From Enterobacteria phage IME_EC2, in the sequence record NC_047742.1: DNA of 41,510 nt. One strand, 5' to 3'. Positions 59 through 37,537 of the stretch are shown in pieces. Within the stretch, counting starts at the first letter, position 1. Each line of letters begins with the position of its first letter. A model generated the notes under the pieces. That model ran no database searches and was not told where the DNA came from. It was given only the letters and a program-made list of their open reading frames with translations. Both the position numbers and the translations under genes were made by a program.

Positions 59-103
59 ATAGCACGAATTGCTAAAAGCGATTTATCAAATGTTGTTATA
101 GTT
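59..103 (+). promoter_or_regulatory. Promoter-like cassette copy 1: dyad ATAGCACGAATTGCTAAAA, 22-bp spacer, TATAGT
   Basis: Read directly; same dyad recurs 6 times, always upstream of the first ORF of a gene block and in the same orientation relative to it. Confidence 0.5.
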
Positions 104-2805: not shown

Positions 2806-2830
2806 GGGGGCCAGTTGGCCCCCTTTTTTA
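2806..2830. terminator. intrinsic terminator between convergent genes (GGGGGCC-AGTT-GGCCCCC + T-run)
   Basis: Stem-loop with T-run on plus strand; sits at the convergence of Rz (+) and the Ig-like gene (-). Confidence 0.7.
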
Positions 2831-3616
2831 TGCCGGGTTTACCGTGACCGTACAAGCGATCGAGGTGACGGTGTTCGGCGGGACGGTGTTCGAACTGGTG
2901 GCAATACAGCGGTATTGACCAGCGTCCCCAGCCTGCGGCGTGGCAATGTTCAGCGTTGCGGCGGTTGCTCCAGTGATGCCACCTGCGCCTCCGTTGGCGA
3001 CGTTGCTCCAGGAGGTCCCGCCGTTCGTGGACTTCTGCCACTGGTAGGAGTACGGAGCGAGGCCCGTCGCCGCGTTGACCACGACCGCCAGCGAGTCCGC
3101 GACGTCTACCGTCCAGGTATCGGTCGCCGGGAGGTTGGTCGATAGGGCGATCGCCTGTTTCGTGCGCTCGCGCAAGGACTCCACCATCTGGCCCGTTGCG
3201 TCGGTTACTCTCACGAAGTAATCCCCGTTATTATTAGCCGCTGAGTAAGAGGCGATCGTGTAGCTGTCCTGATCGGCCCCCACTGGGTTGTCGGTGCTGG
3301 AGGCACGACGGAACCAGGCGAACGAGTAAGGAGCCACGCCGCCCTCCATCTCCACGGAGAACTCCTTCGAAGCGCCCCCGGTGACGTAGGTCGCGCCCGC
3401 GTCGGTTGCGTTGTTGCCCGGAAGGTTGACGGCGAACGTCAGCGCCGGGACAAGGTTCGGATCGTACTCCATGTAAAACATCCCAGTAGGATCCAGACCT
3501 TCGGGATCTGCGTCCAGCCAGATCACATCTTTCTGGGGAACCGTGACCGGATCAAGGATTCGCGTCACTTTCCACCCGAACATATCCGGGCGGTAGTACC
3601 GATGCCAAAAAGCCAT
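2828..3616 (-). CDS. Ig-like (Big/Hoc-type) domain protein
   Basis: Two Ig-like repeats (PYSFAWFRR, PYSYQWQKS, GQYRC); ORF trimmed to second ATG (MAFWH) with GAGGA upstream. Confidence 0.65.
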   Translation of the reverse strand: MAFWHRYYRPDMFGWKVTRILDPVTVPQKDVIWLDADPEGLDPTGMFYMEYDPNLVPALTFAVNLPGNNATDAGATYVTGGASKEFSVEMEGGVAPYSFAWFRRASSTDNPVGADQDSYTIASYSAANNNGDYFVRVTDATGQMVESLRERTKQAIALSTNLPATDTWTVDVADSLAVVVNAATGLAPYSYQWQKSTNGGTSWSNVANGGAGGITGATAATLNIATPQAGDAGQYRCIATSSNTVPPNTVTSIACTVTVNPA

Positions 3617-3688
3617 AATTTTGTCCTCGTGAAATTGTGCGGTATACTGCCCCGGCATTGTAGATCATCTCTGGCGTTAAAACGAAAG

Positions 3689-3718
3689 GAGCCGCTTTTT
3701 AAGCGGCCCTTTTTTTTA
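3689..3718. terminator. intrinsic terminator (GAGCCGC-TTTTTAA-GCGGCCC + T8)
   Basis: Stem-loop flanked by T-run on plus side and U-rich on minus side. Confidence 0.65.
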
Positions 3719-3817
3719 GAGTACCATCGACACGCCGAAACCGATTAAAGCCCACAGCGCGGCGCTTGCTGCGATTACGCCCCATATAACGTATTTGTGT
3801 CCGCGTAAGTTGTTCAT
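3716..3817 (-). CDS. small hydrophobic protein (33 aa, one TM)
   Basis: ATG with strong SD (AGAGGGGAA), overlaps upstream stop as ATGA; short, so uncertain. Confidence 0.45.
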   Translation of the reverse strand: MNNLRGHKYVIWGVIAASAALWALIGFGVSMVL

Positions 3818-4206
3818 GCGATTTTCCCCTCTTTCTTGAATTTTGCCAGGCGTCCGCGAATTGAAGGACGCGATTTGTTGAGCCAGTTCGCGACGTGCGC
3901 GTGAGTGAGTTCGGTCGGCACTATCACCCGGCGACCAGTGGCGATCACCAGTTCGTCCAGATCCTCGTCGGTCAGAAGTCCCTCCCAGAAGCGGACCAGC
4001 TTCCGGTCCTCCTCCGTCGTCCATTGCGTGTACGTCCGGTTATACGCCAGGGAGAGGCCCAGCTTAGAGGCCCGGACCTGCATCTGGCGGAAGTTGCGAC
4101 CGATGCGCTTCGCCAGTTCGTGCGGCGGCATGGTCGCGGCGAGGCGGGTCAGTTCCGCGTCCTGCTCGTCAGTCCACCCGATAATCTGCGCTGTTACTTT
4201 ACCCAC
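3814..4206 (-). CDS. putative DNA-binding protein with two GcrA/Myb-like WT-x-EED repeats
   Basis: GTG start with AGGAGG 7 nt upstream; GWTDEQDAEL...ASKLGLS and QWTTEEDRKL repeats resemble the GcrA N-terminal domain. Confidence 0.55.
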   Translation of the reverse strand: MGKVTAQIIGWTDEQDAELTRLAATMPPHELAKRIGRNFRQMQVRASKLGLSLAYNRTYTQWTTEEDRKLVRFWEGLLTDEDLDELVIATGRRVIVPTELTHAHVANWLNKSRPSIRGRLAKFKKEGKIA

Positions 4207-4477
4207 GAGATCCTCCTTTGAGGTGCTTCCGGTTTTTGGTTGAGTCCAGCGCCCGCTTAAGGTCGCCCTTCTCGCTTTTGGTTCCCGGCACGACTCGGAA
4301 GTGGTGCGGGTCTGGTTGGTTCAGGTACATCTCGCCGTCCGGCGTCTCGATCGATATGTCGGCGATCGCCTCCTTGCCGAACACGCGAGAGACTGCGCTG
4401 ATCATGCCGTCCAGTTCGGCGGCTTGCGCCGCCTCCCACAGTTCCCGGCGCGTTGCCTTAGTGGGCCGGGTAGCCAT
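4199..4477 (-). CDS. hypothetical protein (92 aa)
   Basis: ORF track; tightly packed in minus-strand operon. Confidence 0.5.
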   Translation of the reverse strand: MATRPTKATRRELWEAAQAAELDGMISAVSRVFGKEAIADISIETPDGEMYLNQPDPHHFRVVPGTKSEKGDLKRALDSTKNRKHLKGGSRG

Positions 4478-4685
4478 ACGCCCCCCGGATAAGTTCGCGG
4501 GCGTCGTTCTCCGCCTGGACCGCTTCGCGGGTAAGTGCTGCCTTTGCCAGTGGCCCCGCCGCGTACATCTTGAGGCGGTTGCGGAGGATCATCGCTGTCT
4601 CGATCAGGATATGCGCCTGTTTCAGTAACAGCGGGTTCACGATCTGAGCCTTGTTTGTTTTGGTGTGGAGTAATGTCTGTTTCAT
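4458..4685 (-). CDS. hypothetical protein (75 aa)
   Basis: ORF 4458..4748 trimmed to ATG (MKQTLL) with GAGGA upstream; first gene after promoter copy 2. Confidence 0.5.
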   Translation of the reverse strand: MKQTLLHTKTNKAQIVNPLLLKQAHILIETAMILRNRLKMYAAGPLAKAALTREAVQAENDARELIRGAYGYPAH

Positions 4686-4740
4686 TGCTTCGTCCTCGTG
4701 TTGGTGTGAAAGAATAATAACAAAGGATAAGCGGCATTGC

Positions 4741-4758
4741 TTTAGCAAAAAGTGCTAT
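4741..4758 (-). promoter_or_regulatory. Promoter-like dyad copy 2 (ATAGCACTTTTTGCTAAA on minus strand), -10-like TATTAT 22-23 bp downstream
   Basis: Read directly; lies between a terminator and the next minus-strand gene. Confidence 0.5.
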
Positions 4759-4762
4759 ACGC

Positions 4763-4786
4763 AAAAAAGGCCCCGGAGGGCCTTGT
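4763..4786 (-). terminator. intrinsic terminator for minus-strand operon (AAGGCCC-TCCG-GGGCCTT + U-run)
   Basis: GC hairpin followed on minus strand by TTTTTTG, directly after stop of ORF 4788..5528. Confidence 0.6.
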
Positions 4787-6352: not shown

Positions 6353-6994
6353 TTAAATCATCGTTTTGCCTTCGAACATCATTTCCGCCTGGGTCAGATA
6401 TTCAGTCTTGATCGGTCCGCGCTTCTTCGGCTTGATAACGAACATCACGGACGGCTTGCTGTTTTTCTTGCCCGCGACTTCGGTCCCTGCCTTCACGAAC
6501 GCCACGCGCCCGGAGTTCTCTCCGTCGCTGGTGATGTGAATTACCAGGCTCCCGGCGTCCAGCGCCTTCTTAAACCACGCCGTGGACGCGTCGGAGTTCA
6601 GGAGGAAAACGGTCGTAACGTCGCGATCCTTCGCTTGCTGGATGGCCTTCACGATCCACGGAAGCGGCTCGGCGTAAGGAGGATTGCACCAGGCCAGCCC
6701 GCCCTCCGCGCCCCAGTCTACGCCGTCCTTGAGGGCGTCCGTTTTCTCGTCCAGATAGACGTCACAAAGCGCGTTTGCTTTCTCCGCTGCGACGTCGATC
6801 CCGAACTGCCCGAAGCGCTTCACAGCCCAGTCGAACAGCCAGCGCGGGGTCTGCCACTTCTGACGGATAGCGTCCGGCGTCTTGGACTTGTTGAAGCGGC
6901 GACCGCTAACAGTGGTCACGTCTGCCGCTGCGCGTTCCGCTTCGGTCATGCCGTCCACATGGTCGATCGTGGTGGTGTCTTTCTCGTCTTTCAT
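6353..6994 (-). CDS. phage N6-adenine DNA methyltransferase (Dam family)
   Basis: WQTPRWLFDW near N-terminus and catalytic-type motif NPPY (LAWCNPPYAE), typical of phage N6A-MTases. Confidence 0.8.
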   Translation of the reverse strand: MKDEKDTTTIDHVDGMTEAERAAADVTTVSGRRFNKSKTPDAIRQKWQTPRWLFDWAVKRFGQFGIDVAAEKANALCDVYLDEKTDALKDGVDWGAEGGLAWCNPPYAEPLPWIVKAIQQAKDRDVTTVFLLNSDASTAWFKKALDAGSLVIHITSDGENSGRVAFVKAGTEVAGKKNSKPSVMFVIKPKKRGPIKTEYLTQAEMMFEGKTMI

Positions 6995-7049: not shown

Positions 7050-7068
7050 TTTTAGCAAAAAGTGCTAT
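7050..7068 (-). promoter_or_regulatory. Promoter-like dyad copy 3 (ATAGCACTTTTTGCTAAAA on minus strand), TATCGT 22 bp downstream
   Basis: Read directly; about 58 bp upstream of the Dam start codon. Confidence 0.5.
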
Positions 7069-8030: not shown

Positions 8031-10073
8031 ATGGAAATGGTCGAGACATTAGAAAGGCAGATCGCGGCCCTCGATCGCGACGCCATTCTCCGCGCCCTCG
8101 GTGATATGCCCGTAACGCCATACGATCACCAGTTCGTCGCATATGAGGCTTGCGCGAAGGCTATCCGTAAATATCCGGGGCCTGTCATTGTGGACGCCGC
8201 CGTGAGCGCCGGGAAAACCATCATGATCTCCATGCTGGCCCGCCGGATCAGGGATATGGGATTCCCCGCCATGATCCTGTCCCGCCAGGGTGAGATCATC
8301 GATCAGGACTTCGAGGAGTTGCGGAACTTCGGCGTAAACTCCTCGATCTACTGCGCCAGCTTAGGCCGCAAGTCTGCACACTTCCCGATCGTCGTCGGCT
8401 CCGAGGGTACAGTGATCGGAGGGATCCGCCCAGGCCAGCCCCTCGCCCATTACGCGCCGTTGTTCCTGCTGATCGATGAATGCCATCACGTCAACATTGA
8501 GGACCTGATCCGCTCGGAGGAGCGCGTGGTCCCGGAGTACCTGCGGGACGATAACGGGACCGTTATCCTCGACGGCTTCGGGGATCCGACCATTATCGGC
8601 GAGCATAAGGGCGAGACATACGAGGAGATGATCGAGGCGGGTCGCTCCAGTTATACGATCATCATCCGAACGTTACAGGCCCGCGCCCGGTCAGTGTACG
8701 GGAAGGAACTCCGCATTATCGGCTACACTGGGACGCCTTACAGGGGCGTGGAGTCCATCATCCAGCCAGACCTCGAACAGCCCGGATTCTGGCGTGAAAA
8801 GGTCTGCGAGATCTCGACGGAATACCTCGTCAGCGTTGGCGCTGTCGTTCCGACTCACTTCGGGATCTCCAATCTCCACTACAACCTCGACCAGTGGCGA
8901 TCGACGGGTGAGGACGGCATTAAGGAGTTCACGGACTCCGACATGGACGCCATGCAAAAGGCGATCCTGAAAGAGAAAAAGCTCACTCATGAGATCATGG
9001 CGGAGGTCTACGCCATCGCCCAGCACAGGAACGGCGTGTTAGTGACGTGTGCGGGCGTGAGACACTGCAAACAGGCGGCGGAGGCCCTTCCCCCTGGTAC
9101 GCCTTACGCCATCATTACGGACGACACGACGGGCAAGAAGCGCATGGACATTTTGCGCCGCGCCAATACCGGGGAGATCAAGTTCATTTTCCAGGTTAAC
9201 GCCCTAACGACTGGCGTTAACGTCCCGTTCTGGGACACGTCCGTGATCCTGCGGAAGATCGGCTCCCTCACGCTCCTAACCCAGCTTTTAGGCCGTGGGA
9301 TGCGAATCCTTAAGCCGTTCCACATCGCCGCCGGGGTGACGAAAGAGGATCACCTGGTTCTCGACTACGCCGGGACGCTGGACGAACTCGGATCCCTGTA
9401 CTTCTCCCCGCTGCTGGAGGCATATCAGCACAGCGCCGACGAGAGCAAAGGAGAATTAGAGTTAGACTGTCCGAAGTGTCGCAAGGCGGGCCATCCTACG
9501 CTCAACGGCAAACACGCCCGACGCTGCCGCTACGTGGACGAGAACGGCGATCGCTGCGAACACTTTTTCCAGTTCATCACCTGCGACGACTGGAAGGACG
9601 CCAGCGGGCGGAAAGTGGTCCAAAAGGGATGCGGGGCGCAAAACGACATAGTAGCCAGGATCTGCCGCTGCTGCGGGAACTCGCTCGTAGATCCGAACAA
9701 GAACTTAAGCCGGACCACGTACAGCCGCGACGACTACGCGACCGTGAGAGGGTTCAGAATTGAATTAGCGCGAGGGACTGGGGGGATCGCCTTCCGGTAC
9801 GAACTGGAGAAGGACGGGGACCAGTTTGTGGCCTGGCAAGTATTTTGGCCCGGTAGCGACTCGCCAGCGGCGAAAAAGGAATGGGTCCATAATGGCATCC
9901 TTAAGCACGTCCTGGACGGCAAAATGAGGGCCACGATCAAGAAATGCCGGACGCCCCAGCAGGTATTAGAGTTCGCCCCGTACTTCATGGCCCCGCTTAA
10001 GGTCAGCCACCGGAAGATCGGCAAGGGTAAAGACGTTATCACTAACAAAATTTTCATGAATGAGGAGTTTTAA
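8031..10073 (+). CDS. SF2 DNA helicase (DExH box) with C-terminal Cys-rich zinc-finger region
   Basis: Motif I AAVSAGKT, motif II DECHH, motif VI QLLGRGMR; C-terminal CPKC...CRY...C...CRCC. Confidence 0.8.
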   Translation: MEMVETLERQIAALDRDAILRALGDMPVTPYDHQFVAYEACAKAIRKYPGPVIVDAAVSAGKTIMISMLARRIRDMGFPAMILSRQGEIIDQDFEELRNFGVNSSIYCASLGRKSAHFPIVVGSEGTVIGGIRPGQPLAHYAPLFLLIDECHHVNIEDLIRSEERVVPEYLRDDNGTVILDGFGDPTIIGEHKGETYEEMIEAGRSSYTIIIRTLQARARSVYGKELRIIGYTGTPYRGVESIIQPDLEQPGFWREKVCEISTEYLVSVGAVVPTHFGISNLHYNLDQWRSTGEDGIKEFTDSDMDAMQKAILKEKKLTHEIMAEVYAIAQHRNGVLVTCAGVRHCKQAAEALPPGTPYAIITDDTTGKKRMDILRRANTGEIKFIFQVNALTTGVNVPFWDTSVILRKIGSLTLLTQLLGRGMRILKPFHIAAGVTKEDHLVLDYAGTLDELGSLYFSPLLEAYQHSADESKGELELDCPKCRKAGHPTLNGKHARRCRYVDENGDRCEHFFQFITCDDWKDASGRKVVQKGCGAQNDIVARICRCCGNSLVDPNKNLSRTTYSRDDYATVRGFRIELARGTGGIAFRYELEKDGDQFVAWQVFWPGSDSPAAKKEWVHNGILKHVLDGKMRATIKKCRTPQQVLEFAPYFMAPLKVSHRKIGKGKDVITNKIFMNEEF

Positions 10074-12946: not shown

Positions 12947-13387
12947 ATGAAACAATGCGCCATCTGTCACGAATCGAAGCCGCTGGAGGAGTTCCACAGG
13001 AACAAGAGCAAGAAGGACGGGAGGGACTCGCGCTGTCGCCAGTGTAAGAGCGGGCTTTATAAGAGTTACTACCACGGCGATCCAGCCCGAAAGGAGCGGA
13101 TCATCGAAAACGTTAAAACGTACCAGGCCGGACCGGGGCGAGAGAAGGCGAACGCCACAAAGTCCAGCTATCACACAAAACATCCAAAGAAGCGCCGCGC
13201 CCATAATCTGGTTTATAACGCGATACGGCGCGGAGAGCTAACGAGGGGGCCGTGTGAGGTCTGCGGAGCGGAGAAGGTAGTGGGACACCATGACGACTAC
13301 GATCGCCCGTTAGAGGTCCGCTGGCTCTGCGAGAGGCATCATAAAGAGTGGCATCTGGTTAACGGTGAAGCGCTTAACCCAGATTGA
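12947..13387 (+). CDS. HNH endonuclease
   Basis: N-terminal Cys cluster (CAICH...CRQCK) and C-terminal HNH-type motif (VVGHHDDYDRPLEVRWLCERHHKEWH). Confidence 0.8.
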   Translation: MKQCAICHESKPLEEFHRNKSKKDGRDSRCRQCKSGLYKSYYHGDPARKERIIENVKTYQAGPGREKANATKSSYHTKHPKKRRAHNLVYNAIRRGELTRGPCEVCGAEKVVGHHDDYDRPLEVRWLCERHHKEWHLVNGEALNPD

Positions 13388-13444
13388 TTTAGATAACGGT
13401 TTAATGAATAATCACGGAGACGTTAACCAATGAAGGAGCCGATC

Positions 13445-13663
13445 ATGGCAACATTAAAGCCCGTTTGCCTCGTGAAGCAGGTCCGAGAGGCGAAAGGCAT
13501 CCAGCAAAAAGATCTGGCGGAACGCGTAGGCATGATCGCCCACCAGTTGAGCCGATACGAGAACGGGCACGAGTTGCCACATATTACTAACCTCTGCCGA
13601 CTCGCTGCCGCCCTGGACGTGTCGATCGCAGACCTGATCGAGTATGGAGTGAATCATGATTAA
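13445..13663 (+). CDS. XRE-family HTH transcriptional regulator (Cro/CI-like)
   Basis: KGIQQKDLAERVGMIAHQLSRYENG HTH signature; second ATG chosen because AAGGAG lies 6 nt upstream (ORF track start 13430 is an alternative). Confidence 0.75.
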   Translation: MATLKPVCLVKQVREAKGIQQKDLAERVGMIAHQLSRYENGHELPHITNLCRLAAALDVSIADLIEYGVNHD

Positions 13664-13940
13664 GTCCGGCCTTAGCTTTAGCGAAGCTCTGATCGCAGTG
13701 AAGGAAGGTTATAAAATTGCCCGCGCTGGATGGAATGGCGCTAATCAATTCGTGATCAAGGCTGGCGGGTATACCGTAAACGAGCCGCGACCGGGTAGTG
13801 ATTATGCAAAGGCCGGGATCACTGGCGAATTTACGATCGCCCCGCATCTTGATCTTAAAAATGCGCAAGGCGTAATGCAACCGGGTTGGGTCCCATCACA
13901 GGGCGACCTGTTCGCCAATGACTGGACGATCTTACGCTGA
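13656..13940 (+). CDS. DUF2829-like protein (Tad2-type fold candidate)
   Basis: FSEALIAVKEGYKIARAGWNG near N-terminus and C-terminal DLFANDWTIL resemble the DUF2829 pattern; overlaps HTH stop. Confidence 0.5.
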   Translation: MIKSGLSFSEALIAVKEGYKIARAGWNGANQFVIKAGGYTVNEPRPGSDYAKAGITGEFTIAPHLDLKNAQGVMQPGWVPSQGDLFANDWTILR

Positions 13941-28248: not shown

Positions 28249-28267
28249 TTTTAGCAATTCGTGCTAT
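28249..28267 (-). promoter_or_regulatory. Promoter-like dyad copy 4 (ATAGCACGAATTGCTAAAA on minus strand), TATATT 22 bp downstream
   Basis: Read directly; followed by conserved leader hairpin GGCGGGG-AATGGT-CCCCGCC and SD. Confidence 0.5.
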
Positions 28268-36211: not shown

Positions 36212-36230
36212 TTTTAGCAATTCGTGCTAT
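36212..36230 (-). promoter_or_regulatory. Promoter-like dyad copy 5 (ATAGCACGAATTGCTAAAA on minus strand), TATAGT 22 bp downstream
   Basis: Read directly; flanking about 90 bp nearly identical to copy 1 (inverted) and copy 4. Confidence 0.5.
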
Positions 36231-37518: not shown

Positions 37519-37537
37519 GTTTTAGCAATTCGTGCTA
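37519..37537 (-). promoter_or_regulatory. Promoter-like dyad copy 6 (ATAGCACGAATTGCTAAAA on minus strand), TAATAT 22 bp downstream
   Basis: Read directly; overlaps the stop of the upstream small ORF. Confidence 0.5.

What the first reader, a model, noticed from the sequence alone, without database searches (positions are those of the whole stretch)
3814..4206. Tandem GcrA/Myb-like repeat protein next to the phage Dam methylase operon
Two repeats (GWTDEQDAELTRL...ASKLGLS and QWTTEEDRKLVRFW) resemble the N-terminal DNA-binding domain of GcrA, a regulator that reads N6-methyladenine-marked promoters. With a phage N6A methyltransferase in the adjacent operon, this could be a methylation writer/reader pair controlling phage transcription, and a candidate binder of the dyad promoters.
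Basis: inference. Interest (0 to 1): 0.5.

Follow-up and report, generated by a model that had tools for sequence, protein, structure and literature searches.

The report
Two-module GcrA/Myb-like phage DNA-binding protein
This is a real, conserved gene of a Murrayvirus-type enterobacterial phage encoding a small basic protein made of two helix-turn-helix modules that resemble the DNA-binding domain of GcrA; it is probably an ordinary phage DNA-binding regulator, and nothing tested supports a methylation reader or a binder of the dyad promoters.

Summary
ORF 3814-4206 (-) is a real, conserved 130-aa gene with a strong ribosome-binding site, and both quoted WT-EED repeats are present.

**GcrA resemblance: supported at fold and remote-homology level.**
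- A one-module profile built from distant relatives matches residues 11-53 in full. It also matches residues 61-74 and 106-123, so repeat 2 is split by a ~30-aa acidic insertion.
- The same profile matches the true GcrA N-terminus (21 bits).

**It is not a GcrA family member.**
- None of 29 relatives hits Pfam GcrA.
- The four m6A-pocket residues are replaced.
- There is no cysteine, so no sigma-70-binding zinc domain.

**Writer/reader idea: unsupported.** A Pfam Dam gene does sit in the upstream operon. GATC is very abundant (522 sites) but evenly spread and absent from all six dyad promoters.

**Dyad-binder idea: contradicted by a double dissociation.**
- T1-like phages carry the same dyad promoter and have no homolog.
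- Sortsnevirus IME279 has a 75%-identical homolog and no dyad.

**Best reading:** a monomeric, bipartite DNA-binding regulator of unknown target. It is a new member of a known kind, of low to moderate interest.

The parts
3814..4206 (-). Gene for the 130-aa protein (stop codon included); pI 9.9, no cysteine
   Evidence: ORF list and translation; 28 homologs; PHROG 323 'transcriptional regulator, D5-like' E=1.1e-16; pI and Cys count
4212..4217 (-). Shine-Dalgarno AGGAGG, 5 nt before the GTG start
   Evidence: Read directly from the sequence
4042..4179 (-). Module 1 (residues 10-55): complete GcrA-DBD/Myb-like three-helix HTH. The recognition helix R37-N38-F39-R40-Q41-M42-Q43-V44 and A46 are invariant in all 29 relatives
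3982..4026 (-). Module 2, helix 1 (residues 61-75, QWTTEEDRKLVRFWE)
   Evidence: hhalign internal repeat; module HMM positions 1-14
3904..3981 (-). Acidic insertion inside module 2 (residues 76-101, one helix at 80-90). It is variable and occurs in at least three alternative versions among relatives
   Evidence: Alignment A1; AF2 models; pI 4.7 for residues 59-105
3826..3903 (-). Module 2 HTH (residues 102-127, AHVANWL / RPSIRGRLAKFKKEG): basic recognition helix with invariant K111, R117-G118-R119, K122, K124, E126-G127
4714..4757 (-). Promoter-like element of the target's transcription unit: dyad TAGCA-N5-TGCTA (4743-4757), then 23 nt, then TGT-TATTAT (4714-4719)
4767..4784 (-). Terminator-like hairpin ending the upstream Dam operon
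4458..4685 (-). First gene of the unit (75 aa from the ATG at 4685), no family match
4199..4477 (-). Second gene (92 aa, PHROG 2817, unknown function); its end overlaps the target's start
3716..3817 (-). Fourth gene (33 aa, hydrophobic, putative membrane peptide); its ATG overlaps the target's stop (ATGA)
   Evidence: annotated in Lumpael and KMB41
3689..3709 (-). Bidirectional hairpin terminator after the unit. It has a weak T-tract on the minus strand. The Hoc-like head-decoration gene (2828-3658) starts ~30 nt later with no promoter of its own
6353..6994 (-). Phage Dam-type N6-adenine methyltransferase in the neighbouring upstream operon (context only, not shown to be functionally linked)
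   Evidence: PF05869 E=1.5e-44; PHROG 111

Best explanation
The gene encodes a small (15 kDa), strongly basic, cysteine-free DNA-binding protein built from two tandem three-helix helix-turn-helix modules. The modules belong to the GcrA-DBD / Myb-like ('homeodomain-like') superfamily.

- **Module 1 (residues 10-55)** is complete.
- **Module 2 (residues 61-127)** is split between helix 1 and the HTH by a variable acidic insertion of about 30 residues.

*Shown:* the two recognition helices differ from each other, and they are the most conserved parts of the family.

*Inferred:* the protein binds double-stranded DNA as a monomer on a bipartite, asymmetric site. This is the manner of Myb R2R3 or the Tc3/paired bipartite domains. 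It most likely acts as a phage transcription regulator.

*Shown:* the gene sits in a four-gene unit between the DNA-modification/replication genes and the Hoc-like head-decoration gene.

*Inferred:* the unit is transcribed by host RNA polymerase.

It is not a GcrA orthologue. It has no sigma-70-interacting domain and lacks GcrA's methyl-pocket residues. It is not the specific binder of the dyad promoters. Its DNA target is unknown.
For: **Real, conserved gene**
- Good RBS and translational coupling.
- PHROG 323 'transcriptional regulator' at E = 1e-16.

**Structure**
- AF2 models have mean pLDDT 82.6 (whole protein) and 86.5 (C-terminal half), both all-helical.

**Remote homology**
- A profile search of 1.84 billion proteins gives 706 relatives. 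Many carry 4-13 tandem copies of the same module.
- Those relatives pass Pfam cut-offs for Myb_DNA-binding and Myb_DNA-bind_6, and P0029 passes the cut-off for GcrA.
- The module HMM maps both modules in the query and the true GcrA N-terminus.

**DNA-binding character**
- Invariant columns cluster in the two recognition helices.
- Module pI values are 10.4 and 11.1.

**Context**
- The position next to replication/modification genes and just before the Hoc-like gene is conserved in Hungariovirus C130_2 (annotated 'transcriptional regulator, D5-like'), Kc166B and MED16 ('DNA-binding protein reb1').
- In IME279 the homologous unit has an ordinary sigma-70 promoter, TTGCGA-17-TATATT.
Against: - No member of the family has been studied experimentally.
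- No DNA target was identified here.
- Direct Pfam, NCBIfam and PDB sequence matches of the protein itself are all below threshold.
- The fold is generic, so function cannot be read from it.
- Myb/SANT-type modules can also mediate protein-protein contacts.
- 'Transcription regulator' is therefore an inference from fold, charge, conservation pattern and gene position.
Confidence: 0.55

Rival explanations
1. Writer/reader pair. The protein is a GcrA-type reader of N6-methyladenine laid down by the phage Dam. It controls phage promoters according to their methylation state.
For: - Module 1 is GcrA-DBD-like.
- A PF05869 Dam lies 2.1 kb upstream in the neighbouring operon.
- The Dam ... HTH-protein order is kept in C130_2, Kc166B (Dam 51% identical) and MED16.
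- An unrelated lambdoid contig has Dam 2.4 kb upstream of a 133-aa relative.
- GATC is very abundant in the genome: 522 sites against 150 expected from base composition and 376 from a Markov model.
Against: - GcrA's m6A-pocket residues R33, N34, I37 and G38 (PMC5887438) correspond to F39, R40, Q43 and V44.
- No PF07750 hit in any of 29 members.
- No Cys, so no CCCH sigma-70-interacting domain.
- GATC is evenly spread at 5-22 per kb. It is absent from the dyad-to-(-10) stretch of all six dyad promoters and slightly depleted within +/-150 bp of them.
- Relatives in a P22-like contig and in phage SE131 have no methyltransferase nearby.
- Three of the Dam-linked contexts are explained by inherited synteny.
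Confidence: 0.07
2. The protein is the factor that binds the dyad TAGCA-N5-TGCTA at the six phage promoters, as a class-II-type activator or as a repressor.
For: - Six perfect dyads against 0.41 expected by chance.
- Each is centred about -42, with 22-23 nt to a -10-like hexamer. This is the position typical of a class II activator site.
- The protein has HTH modules, and its C-terminal HTH resembles Lrp/AsnC and Crp-type HTHs.
- The dyad's outer positions fit the E. coli Lrp consensus yAGhAwATTwTdCTr (PMC5554404).
Against: Double dissociation:
- The same element (ATAGCAC-N5-GCTAAAA, then about 22 nt, then TATAAT) is present in up to 7 copies per locus in T1-like Drexlerviridae.
- tblastn over 50,697 phage records finds the protein only in 12 Murrayvirus/Sortsnevirus-type records plus 7 weak partial hits, none of them T1-like.
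- Sortsnevirus IME279 encodes a 75%-identical homolog with identical recognition-helix residues. It has no dyad at up to 1 mismatch in its whole genome.

Other points:
- A symmetric dyad calls for two identical HTHs, and this protein's two recognition helices differ.
- The gene itself lies behind a dyad promoter.
Confidence: 0.04
3. It is a DNA-binding accessory of replication, recombination or host takeover (for example an origin- or helicase-loader-associated factor, or a binder of host DNA) rather than a transcription regulator.
For: - The gene lies in the leftward block with primase, Dam, a RusA-like protein and a second methyltransferase.
- Weak hit to Pfam Inhibitor_G39P (SPP1 helicase loader): E = 0.0023, 18.9 bits against a cut-off of 22, seen in 9 of 29 members.
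- HTH_ParB hits in 6 of 29 members.
Against: - All these hits are below threshold, and the G39P match covers the linker and the variable insertion.
- PHROG and database annotations of relatives point to regulators.
- No origin-like repeats were seen next to the gene.
Confidence: 0.25
4. It does not bind DNA. The Myb/SANT-like modules are protein-interaction surfaces, for example contacting RNA polymerase or a host defence protein.
For: - SANT-type relatives of Myb domains bind proteins.
Against: - Both predicted recognition helices are strongly basic and are the most conserved parts.
- The closest structural matches are DNA-bound domains.
Confidence: 0.09

Closest known systems
GcrA cell-cycle regulator of Caulobacter crescentus (Pfam PF07750; PDB 5YIU/5YIV DBD, 7YE1)
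   Same: - The N-terminal ~45-residue three-helix HTH starts with W-T-D-E and ends with L-G-L-S.
- The module HMM aligns it end to end.
   Different: - No long linker and no C-terminal CCCH zinc sigma-70-interacting domain.
- Methyl-pocket and base-contact residues R33/N34/I37/G38 are replaced by F/R/Q/V.
- Two modules instead of one.
- No PF07750 hit.
- An enterobacterial lytic phage, not an alphaproteobacterium with CcrM.
Myb R2R3 / Cef1(Cdc5) tandem Myb repeats (Pfam PF00249, PF13921)
   Same: - Tandem three-helix modules, each starting W-T-x-E-E-D.
- Weak Pfam Myb hits in 15-18 of 29 members, and multi-repeat relatives pass the Myb cut-offs.
- Likely the same way of working: one polypeptide with two recognition helices on adjacent DNA.
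   Different: - Lacks the regularly spaced tryptophan triad.
- c-Myb repeats match the module HMM mostly at helix 1 only.
- The second module carries a 30-residue insertion.
PHROG 323 'transcriptional regulator, D5-like' (e.g. Escherichia phage C130_2 gp16) and MED16 gp41 'DNA-binding protein reb1'
   Same: - HMM match at E = 1e-16 over residues 7-125.
- Same genomic slot: after the methyltransferase/RusA-like block and before the Hoc-like gene.
   Different: - Only ~33-37% identity, and over the first module only.
- Lengths differ (103-195 aa).
- None has been characterised experimentally.
Lrp/AsnC-type N-terminal HTH (e.g. PH0061, E. coli AsnC)
   Different: - No RAM / alpha-beta effector and oligomerisation domain.
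- The similarity is no better than to homeodomains or GcrA.

Membership tests
GcrA (PF07750) | N-terminal three-helix DNA-binding domain of GcrA type | tested here: met
GcrA (PF07750) | Match to the Pfam GcrA profile above the gathering score (26.9 bits) | tested here: not met
   No hit at E <= 10 for the protein and none at E <= 1 for any of 29 family members. Only remote relatives hit it (P0029 at 38 bits; P0179 and P0182).
GcrA (PF07750) | m6A-reading pockets formed by R33, N34, I37 and G38 | tested here: not met
   The residues are defined in PMC5887438. By the HMM-anchored alignment they correspond to F39, R40, Q43 and V44. K39 to R45 and R42 to K48 are conservative changes.
GcrA (PF07750) | C-terminal sigma-70-interacting domain with a CCCH zinc finger (C118, C133, C143, H146) | tested here: not met
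   The protein has no cysteine and ends after the second HTH.
GcrA (PF07750) | Preferential binding to methylated sites located in target promoters | not testable with these tools
   Binding itself cannot be tested here. Indirect test: GATC is absent from the six dyad promoters and is not enriched near them.
Myb/SANT DNA-binding repeats (PF00249, PF13921) | Profile match above the gathering score | tested here: not met
   Best values are E = 0.06 (13.9 bits against 24.4) and E = 0.51 for the protein. Among 29 members the best are 0.031 and 0.0057. Multi-repeat relatives do pass.
Myb/SANT DNA-binding repeats (PF00249, PF13921) | Tandem three-helix modules with a recognition helix as helix 3 | tested here: met
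Lrp/AsnC family | N-terminal HTH plus C-terminal RAM (alpha-beta) effector/oligomerisation domain | tested here: not met
   Only HTH-level similarity was found. No residues are left over for a RAM domain.
PHROG 323 (phage 'transcriptional regulator, D5-like') | Significant match to the PHROG profile | tested here: met
   E = 1.1e-16, 62.3 bits, residues 7-125 against profile positions 145-259 of 319. The profile is only partly covered.

The most novel reading that the evidence does not exclude
The protein is a stripped-down GcrA-type reader with no sigma-binding domain. It senses the methylation state of the phage's exceptionally GATC-dense DNA (one site per 80 bp, written by the phage or host Dam) using a differently built pocket (F39/Q43/V44). 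It uses that to time a late step such as Hoc/late gene expression or the switch from replication to packaging. This would extend the GcrA/CcrM writer-reader logic from alphaproteobacterial cell cycles to enterobacterial lytic phages.
Probability: 0.05. Interest if true: 0.7.

Novelty: new member of a known kind. Interest (0 to 1): 0.25.

Why it matters
If the best reading is right, this assigns a fold and a likely activity (bipartite HTH DNA binding) to a conserved 'hypothetical protein' of Murrayvirus and Sortsnevirus phages. It also links that protein to a large, unstudied family of tandem GcrA-DBD-like modules with up to 13 copies per protein. That is useful for annotation but not surprising.

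The negative results matter more for the scan. The attractive methylation writer/reader story and the link to the dyad promoters should not be carried forward on present evidence. The dyad promoters are a separate feature shared with T1-like phages, and they need a different explanation, either a host factor or RNA polymerase itself.

Tried and rejected
1. **Direct sequence searches with the protein.** Pfam, NCBIfam and PDB (phmmer and profile) gave only sub-threshold HTH, Myb and Crp hits.
3. **hhalign of the N half against the C half.** It recovers only helix 1 of the repeat. The split second module showed up only with an external module HMM.
4. **Inhibitor_G39P hit.** Below cut-off and located over the linker and insertion, so it is kept only as a weak rival.
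5. **Sigma-54 reading of the dyad (GCAC...TTGC).** Rejected by eye because the spacing is 2 bp too short.
6. **Reading TTGCTA as an ordinary -35.** Rejected because the spacing to the -10 is 22-23 nt, not 17.
7. **Dam next to the distant homolog in L005.** The 206-aa neighbour is not a Dam homolog.
8. **Literature search for the dyad sequence.** No paper found. A search for Drexlerviridae promoter motifs returned nothing relevant.
9. **XRE-family protein (13430-13663) as an alternative dyad binder.** Homologs are common and only ~34% identical in some Klebsiella T1-like phages, so this is inconclusive.

Full report
**Where the window comes from.**
- The 41.5-kb window is a near-complete genome of a Murrayvirus-type enterobacterial podophage. 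It is 97% identical to Escherichia phage sortsyn and 84-90% identical to Phage ST231, vB-Eco-KMB41 and Salmonella phage Lumpael.
- The finding corresponds to Lumpael gp27, annotated 'hypothetical protein', and to a truncated 'DNA-binding protein' call in KMB41.

**The observation.**
- It has a GTG start 5 nt after AGGAGG. Its start overlaps the end of the upstream ORF, and its stop overlaps the ATG of a 33-codon downstream ORF.
- Twenty-eight homologs at 52-97% identity were found, all from ~41-42 kb phage contigs. The gene is real.
- The two 'WT-EED' segments are a true internal repeat. hhalign of the two halves aligns WTDEQDAELTRL with WTTEEDRKLVRF (P = 2.8e-4).

**What the repeat is.**
- A profile of the family, searched against 1.84 billion representative proteins, found 706 relatives. 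Most are longer proteins with 4-13 tandem copies of a ~47-residue module, W-T-x-E-E-D-x-x-L-x-x-L-(Y/A)-x-x-x-P-x-x-E-I-A-x-x-L-G-R-S-x-x-A-V-x-x-R-A-x-x-L-G-L.
- These relatives pass Pfam's cut-offs for Myb_DNA-binding and Myb_DNA-bind_6. P0029 also passes the cut-off for the N-terminal 50 positions of GcrA. Closer small relatives carry precomputed PF07750 hits.
- I cut 36 single modules out of ten of these distant proteins and built a 45-position HMM. It matches the query at three places:
  - residues 11-53, full length, 55.6 bits;
  - residues 61-74, module positions 1-14;
  - residues 106-123, module positions 23-40.
- The protein is therefore two modules. The second is split by an insertion of about 30 residues between helix 1 and the helix-turn-helix.
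- That insertion is acidic (pI 4.7 for residues 59-105) and variable, with at least three alternative versions among relatives. The two flanking modules are very basic, with pI 10.4 and 11.1.
- The invariant columns of the family cluster in the two predicted recognition helices: R37-N38-F39-R40-Q41-M42-Q43-V44 and A46, and K111, R117-G118-R119, K122, K124, E126-G127.

**Is it GcrA-like?**
- At the level of fold and remote homology, yes.
  - The AlphaFold model (mean pLDDT 82.6) is all-helical, with helices at 13-22, 28-35, 39-49, 64-75, 80-90, 102-108 and 113-126.
  - Close behind come Cef1 Myb (6.0), Tc3 (5.9), WER MYB (5.7), homeodomains and Lrp/AsnC HTHs.
  - The module HMM aligns the authentic GcrA N-terminus (sequence taken from PDB 7ye1) from residue 3 to 46 at 21.3 bits.
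- As a family member, no.
  - No member of the 29-sequence family hits Pfam GcrA, even at E <= 1.
  - The structural paper on GcrA (PMC5887438) defines the m6A pockets by R33, N34, I37 and G38, and the sigma-70-interacting domain by a CCCH zinc finger.
  - In the HMM-anchored alignment the pocket residues become F39, R40, Q43 and V44.
  - The phage protein has no cysteine and no residues left for a second kind of domain.

**The writer/reader idea.**
- A Dam-type methyltransferase is indeed next door. ORF 6353..6994 (-) hits PF05869 at E = 1.5e-44.
  - It heads an operon with a RusA-like protein, a 77-aa protein and a second methyltransferase (PHROG 757).
  - That operon ends at a terminator-like hairpin at 4767-4784.
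  - The target's own unit starts immediately after it.
It comes out negative.
  - GATC is remarkably frequent in the genome: 522 sites against 150 expected from base composition and 376 from a third-order estimate.
  - It is spread evenly at 5-22 sites per kb.
  - It is absent from the dyad-to-(-10) stretch of all six dyad promoters.
  - Within +/-150 bp of them there are 1-4 sites, against about 3.8 expected.
- Synteny gives only weak support.
  - The order Dam ... HTH protein ... Hoc-like gene is kept in Hungariovirus C130_2, Kosakonia phage Kc166B (Dam 51% identical) and Pantoea phage MED16. These phages share the whole genome layout, so this is inheritance.
  - One unrelated lambdoid contig has Dam 2.4 kb upstream of a 133-aa relative.
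  - A P22-like contig and phage SE131 have no methyltransferase nearby.

**The dyad-promoter idea.**
- The window has six perfect TAGCA-N5-TGCTA dyads against 0.41 expected by chance.
  - All are oriented towards the downstream genes as ATAGCAC-N3-TTGCTAAA.
  - Each is followed after 22-23 nt by a -10-like hexamer, usually preceded by TGT. This puts the dyad centre near -42.
  - They head the lysis operon (60), the target's unit (4743), the Dam operon (7053), the structural genes (28252) and two more leftward units (36215, 37523).
- Two comparative results separate this element from the protein.
  - First, the same element with the same 22-nt spacing to TATAAT occurs in up to seven copies per locus in ~50-kb contigs. 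Those contigs are T1-like Drexlerviridae, such as IME347 and several BASEL phages. tblastn with the protein against 50,697 phage genomes finds only 12 Murrayvirus/Sortsnevirus-type records and 7 weak partial hits, none of them T1-like. The viral-contig scan found only six loci.
  - Second, Klebsiella phage IME279 (Sortsnevirus) encodes a 75%-identical homolog with the same invariant recognition helices. It has no dyad, even with one mismatch, in its whole genome. At the homologous position its operon has an ordinary TTGCGA-17-TATATT promoter.
- In addition, a symmetric dyad calls for two identical HTHs, and this protein offers two different ones. The protein is therefore very unlikely to be the dyad's specific partner.

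**Most likely function.**
- *Shown:* a conserved, expressed-looking gene for a basic two-module HTH protein whose recognition helices are its most constrained parts.
- *Inferred:* it binds dsDNA as a monomer on a bipartite asymmetric site, as Myb R2R3 or Tc3/paired domains do, and regulates phage transcription. This agrees with the PHROG 323 label and with the annotations of remote relatives.
- The unit (75-aa, 92-aa, target and 33-aa membrane peptide) ends at a hairpin with a weak minus-strand T-tract at 3689-3709. The Hoc-like decoration gene follows 30 nt later with no promoter of its own. The unit therefore probably reads through into a structural gene.
- The DNA target, and whether the protein activates or represses, remain unknown.
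- Alternatives are:
  - a replication- or recombination-associated DNA binder, supported only by weak G39P and ParB-HTH hits;
  - a protein-interaction role of SANT type;
  - with low probability, a methylation reader built differently from GcrA.

**Novelty and score.**
- The protein is an uncharacterised member of a known kind, the phage HTH regulators of the Myb/GcrA-DBD superfamily.
- The GcrA resemblance is real but does not carry GcrA's mechanism.
- Interest is low to moderate (0.25).
- The by-products may deserve more attention than the protein itself: a promoter architecture shared by Murrayvirus and T1-like phages, and the extreme GATC density.

Noticed in passing
window 60-74 (+), 4743-4757, 7053-7067, 28252-28266, 36215-36229, 37523-37537 (-); also L007-L125: The oriented promoter element ATAGCAC-N3-TTGCTAAA(A/G)C, followed after 22-23 nt by a -10-like hexamer (dyad centre about -42), heads the lysis, DNA-modification, structural and packaging units. 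The same element, with the same spacing to TATAAT, is present in many copies in T1-like Drexlerviridae (IME347, BASEL phages), often with a GC-rich inverted repeat spanning the -10. No paper containing the sequence was found.
   Followed up: partly
same six dyads: The outer 5+5 positions of TAGCA-N5-TGCTA fit the E. coli Lrp consensus yAGhAwATTwTdCTr (PMC5554404) 10 out of 10, but the central five positions fit poorly. Host Lrp as the dyad-binding factor is an untested lead.
   Followed up: no
whole window: GATC occurs 522 times in 41.5 kb, one per 80 bp. That is 3.5 times the base-composition expectation and 1.4 times the Markov expectation. It is evenly spread. CTAG occurs only 5 times. IME279 has 470 GATC in 42.5 kb. 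This is notable for phages that carry their own Dam.
   Followed up: partly
window 4714-4757 versus L138 (IME279) 8533-8660: At the homologous promoter of the same operon, Sortsnevirus IME279 has an ordinary -35 (TTGCGA) at 17-bp spacing. The window instead has the dyad element 5 bp further upstream and no -35. Two promoter architectures have been swapped in front of conserved genes.
   Followed up: partly
window 60, 28252, 36215, 37523 versus 4743, 7053: There are two sub-classes of dyad promoter. Those with central GAATT are followed by a conserved GC-rich hairpin in the 5' leader (for example GGCGGGGAATGGTCCCCGCC). Those with central TTTTT (the Dam operon and the target's unit) have no such hairpin. 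This may reflect different temporal classes.
   Followed up: no
window 2828-3709 (-): The Hoc-like head-decoration gene (PHROG 2973) starts ~30 nt after the bidirectional hairpin 3689-3709 and has no promoter-like site of its own. Its expression would depend on read-through from the target's unit.
   Followed up: no
window 13656-13940 (+): The 94-aa ORF beginning MIKSGLSFSEALIAVKEGYKIARAGWNG looks, from memory, like the DUF2829/Tad2 anti-Thoeris family. No profile search was run on it.
   Followed up: no
window 12947-13387 (+) and 13430-13663 (+): An HNH-type endonuclease ORF (Cys- and His-rich, 146 aa) lies between the SSB gene and a 77-aa XRE-family HTH gene. The XRE protein has ~34% identical relatives in some Klebsiella T1-like phages.
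   Followed up: partly
P0029, P0030, P0033 and other hits: There is a large metagenomic family of proteins made almost entirely of 4-13 tandem GcrA-DBD/Myb-like modules, up to 860 aa long. None has a name or a known function in any source.
   Followed up: partly
L135 7121-8824: In a P22-like contig, the 110-aa two-module relative sits just upstream of the lysis genes, roughly where lambdoid phages carry their late regulator Q. No Q-family Pfam hit is recorded in that stretch.
   Followed up: no
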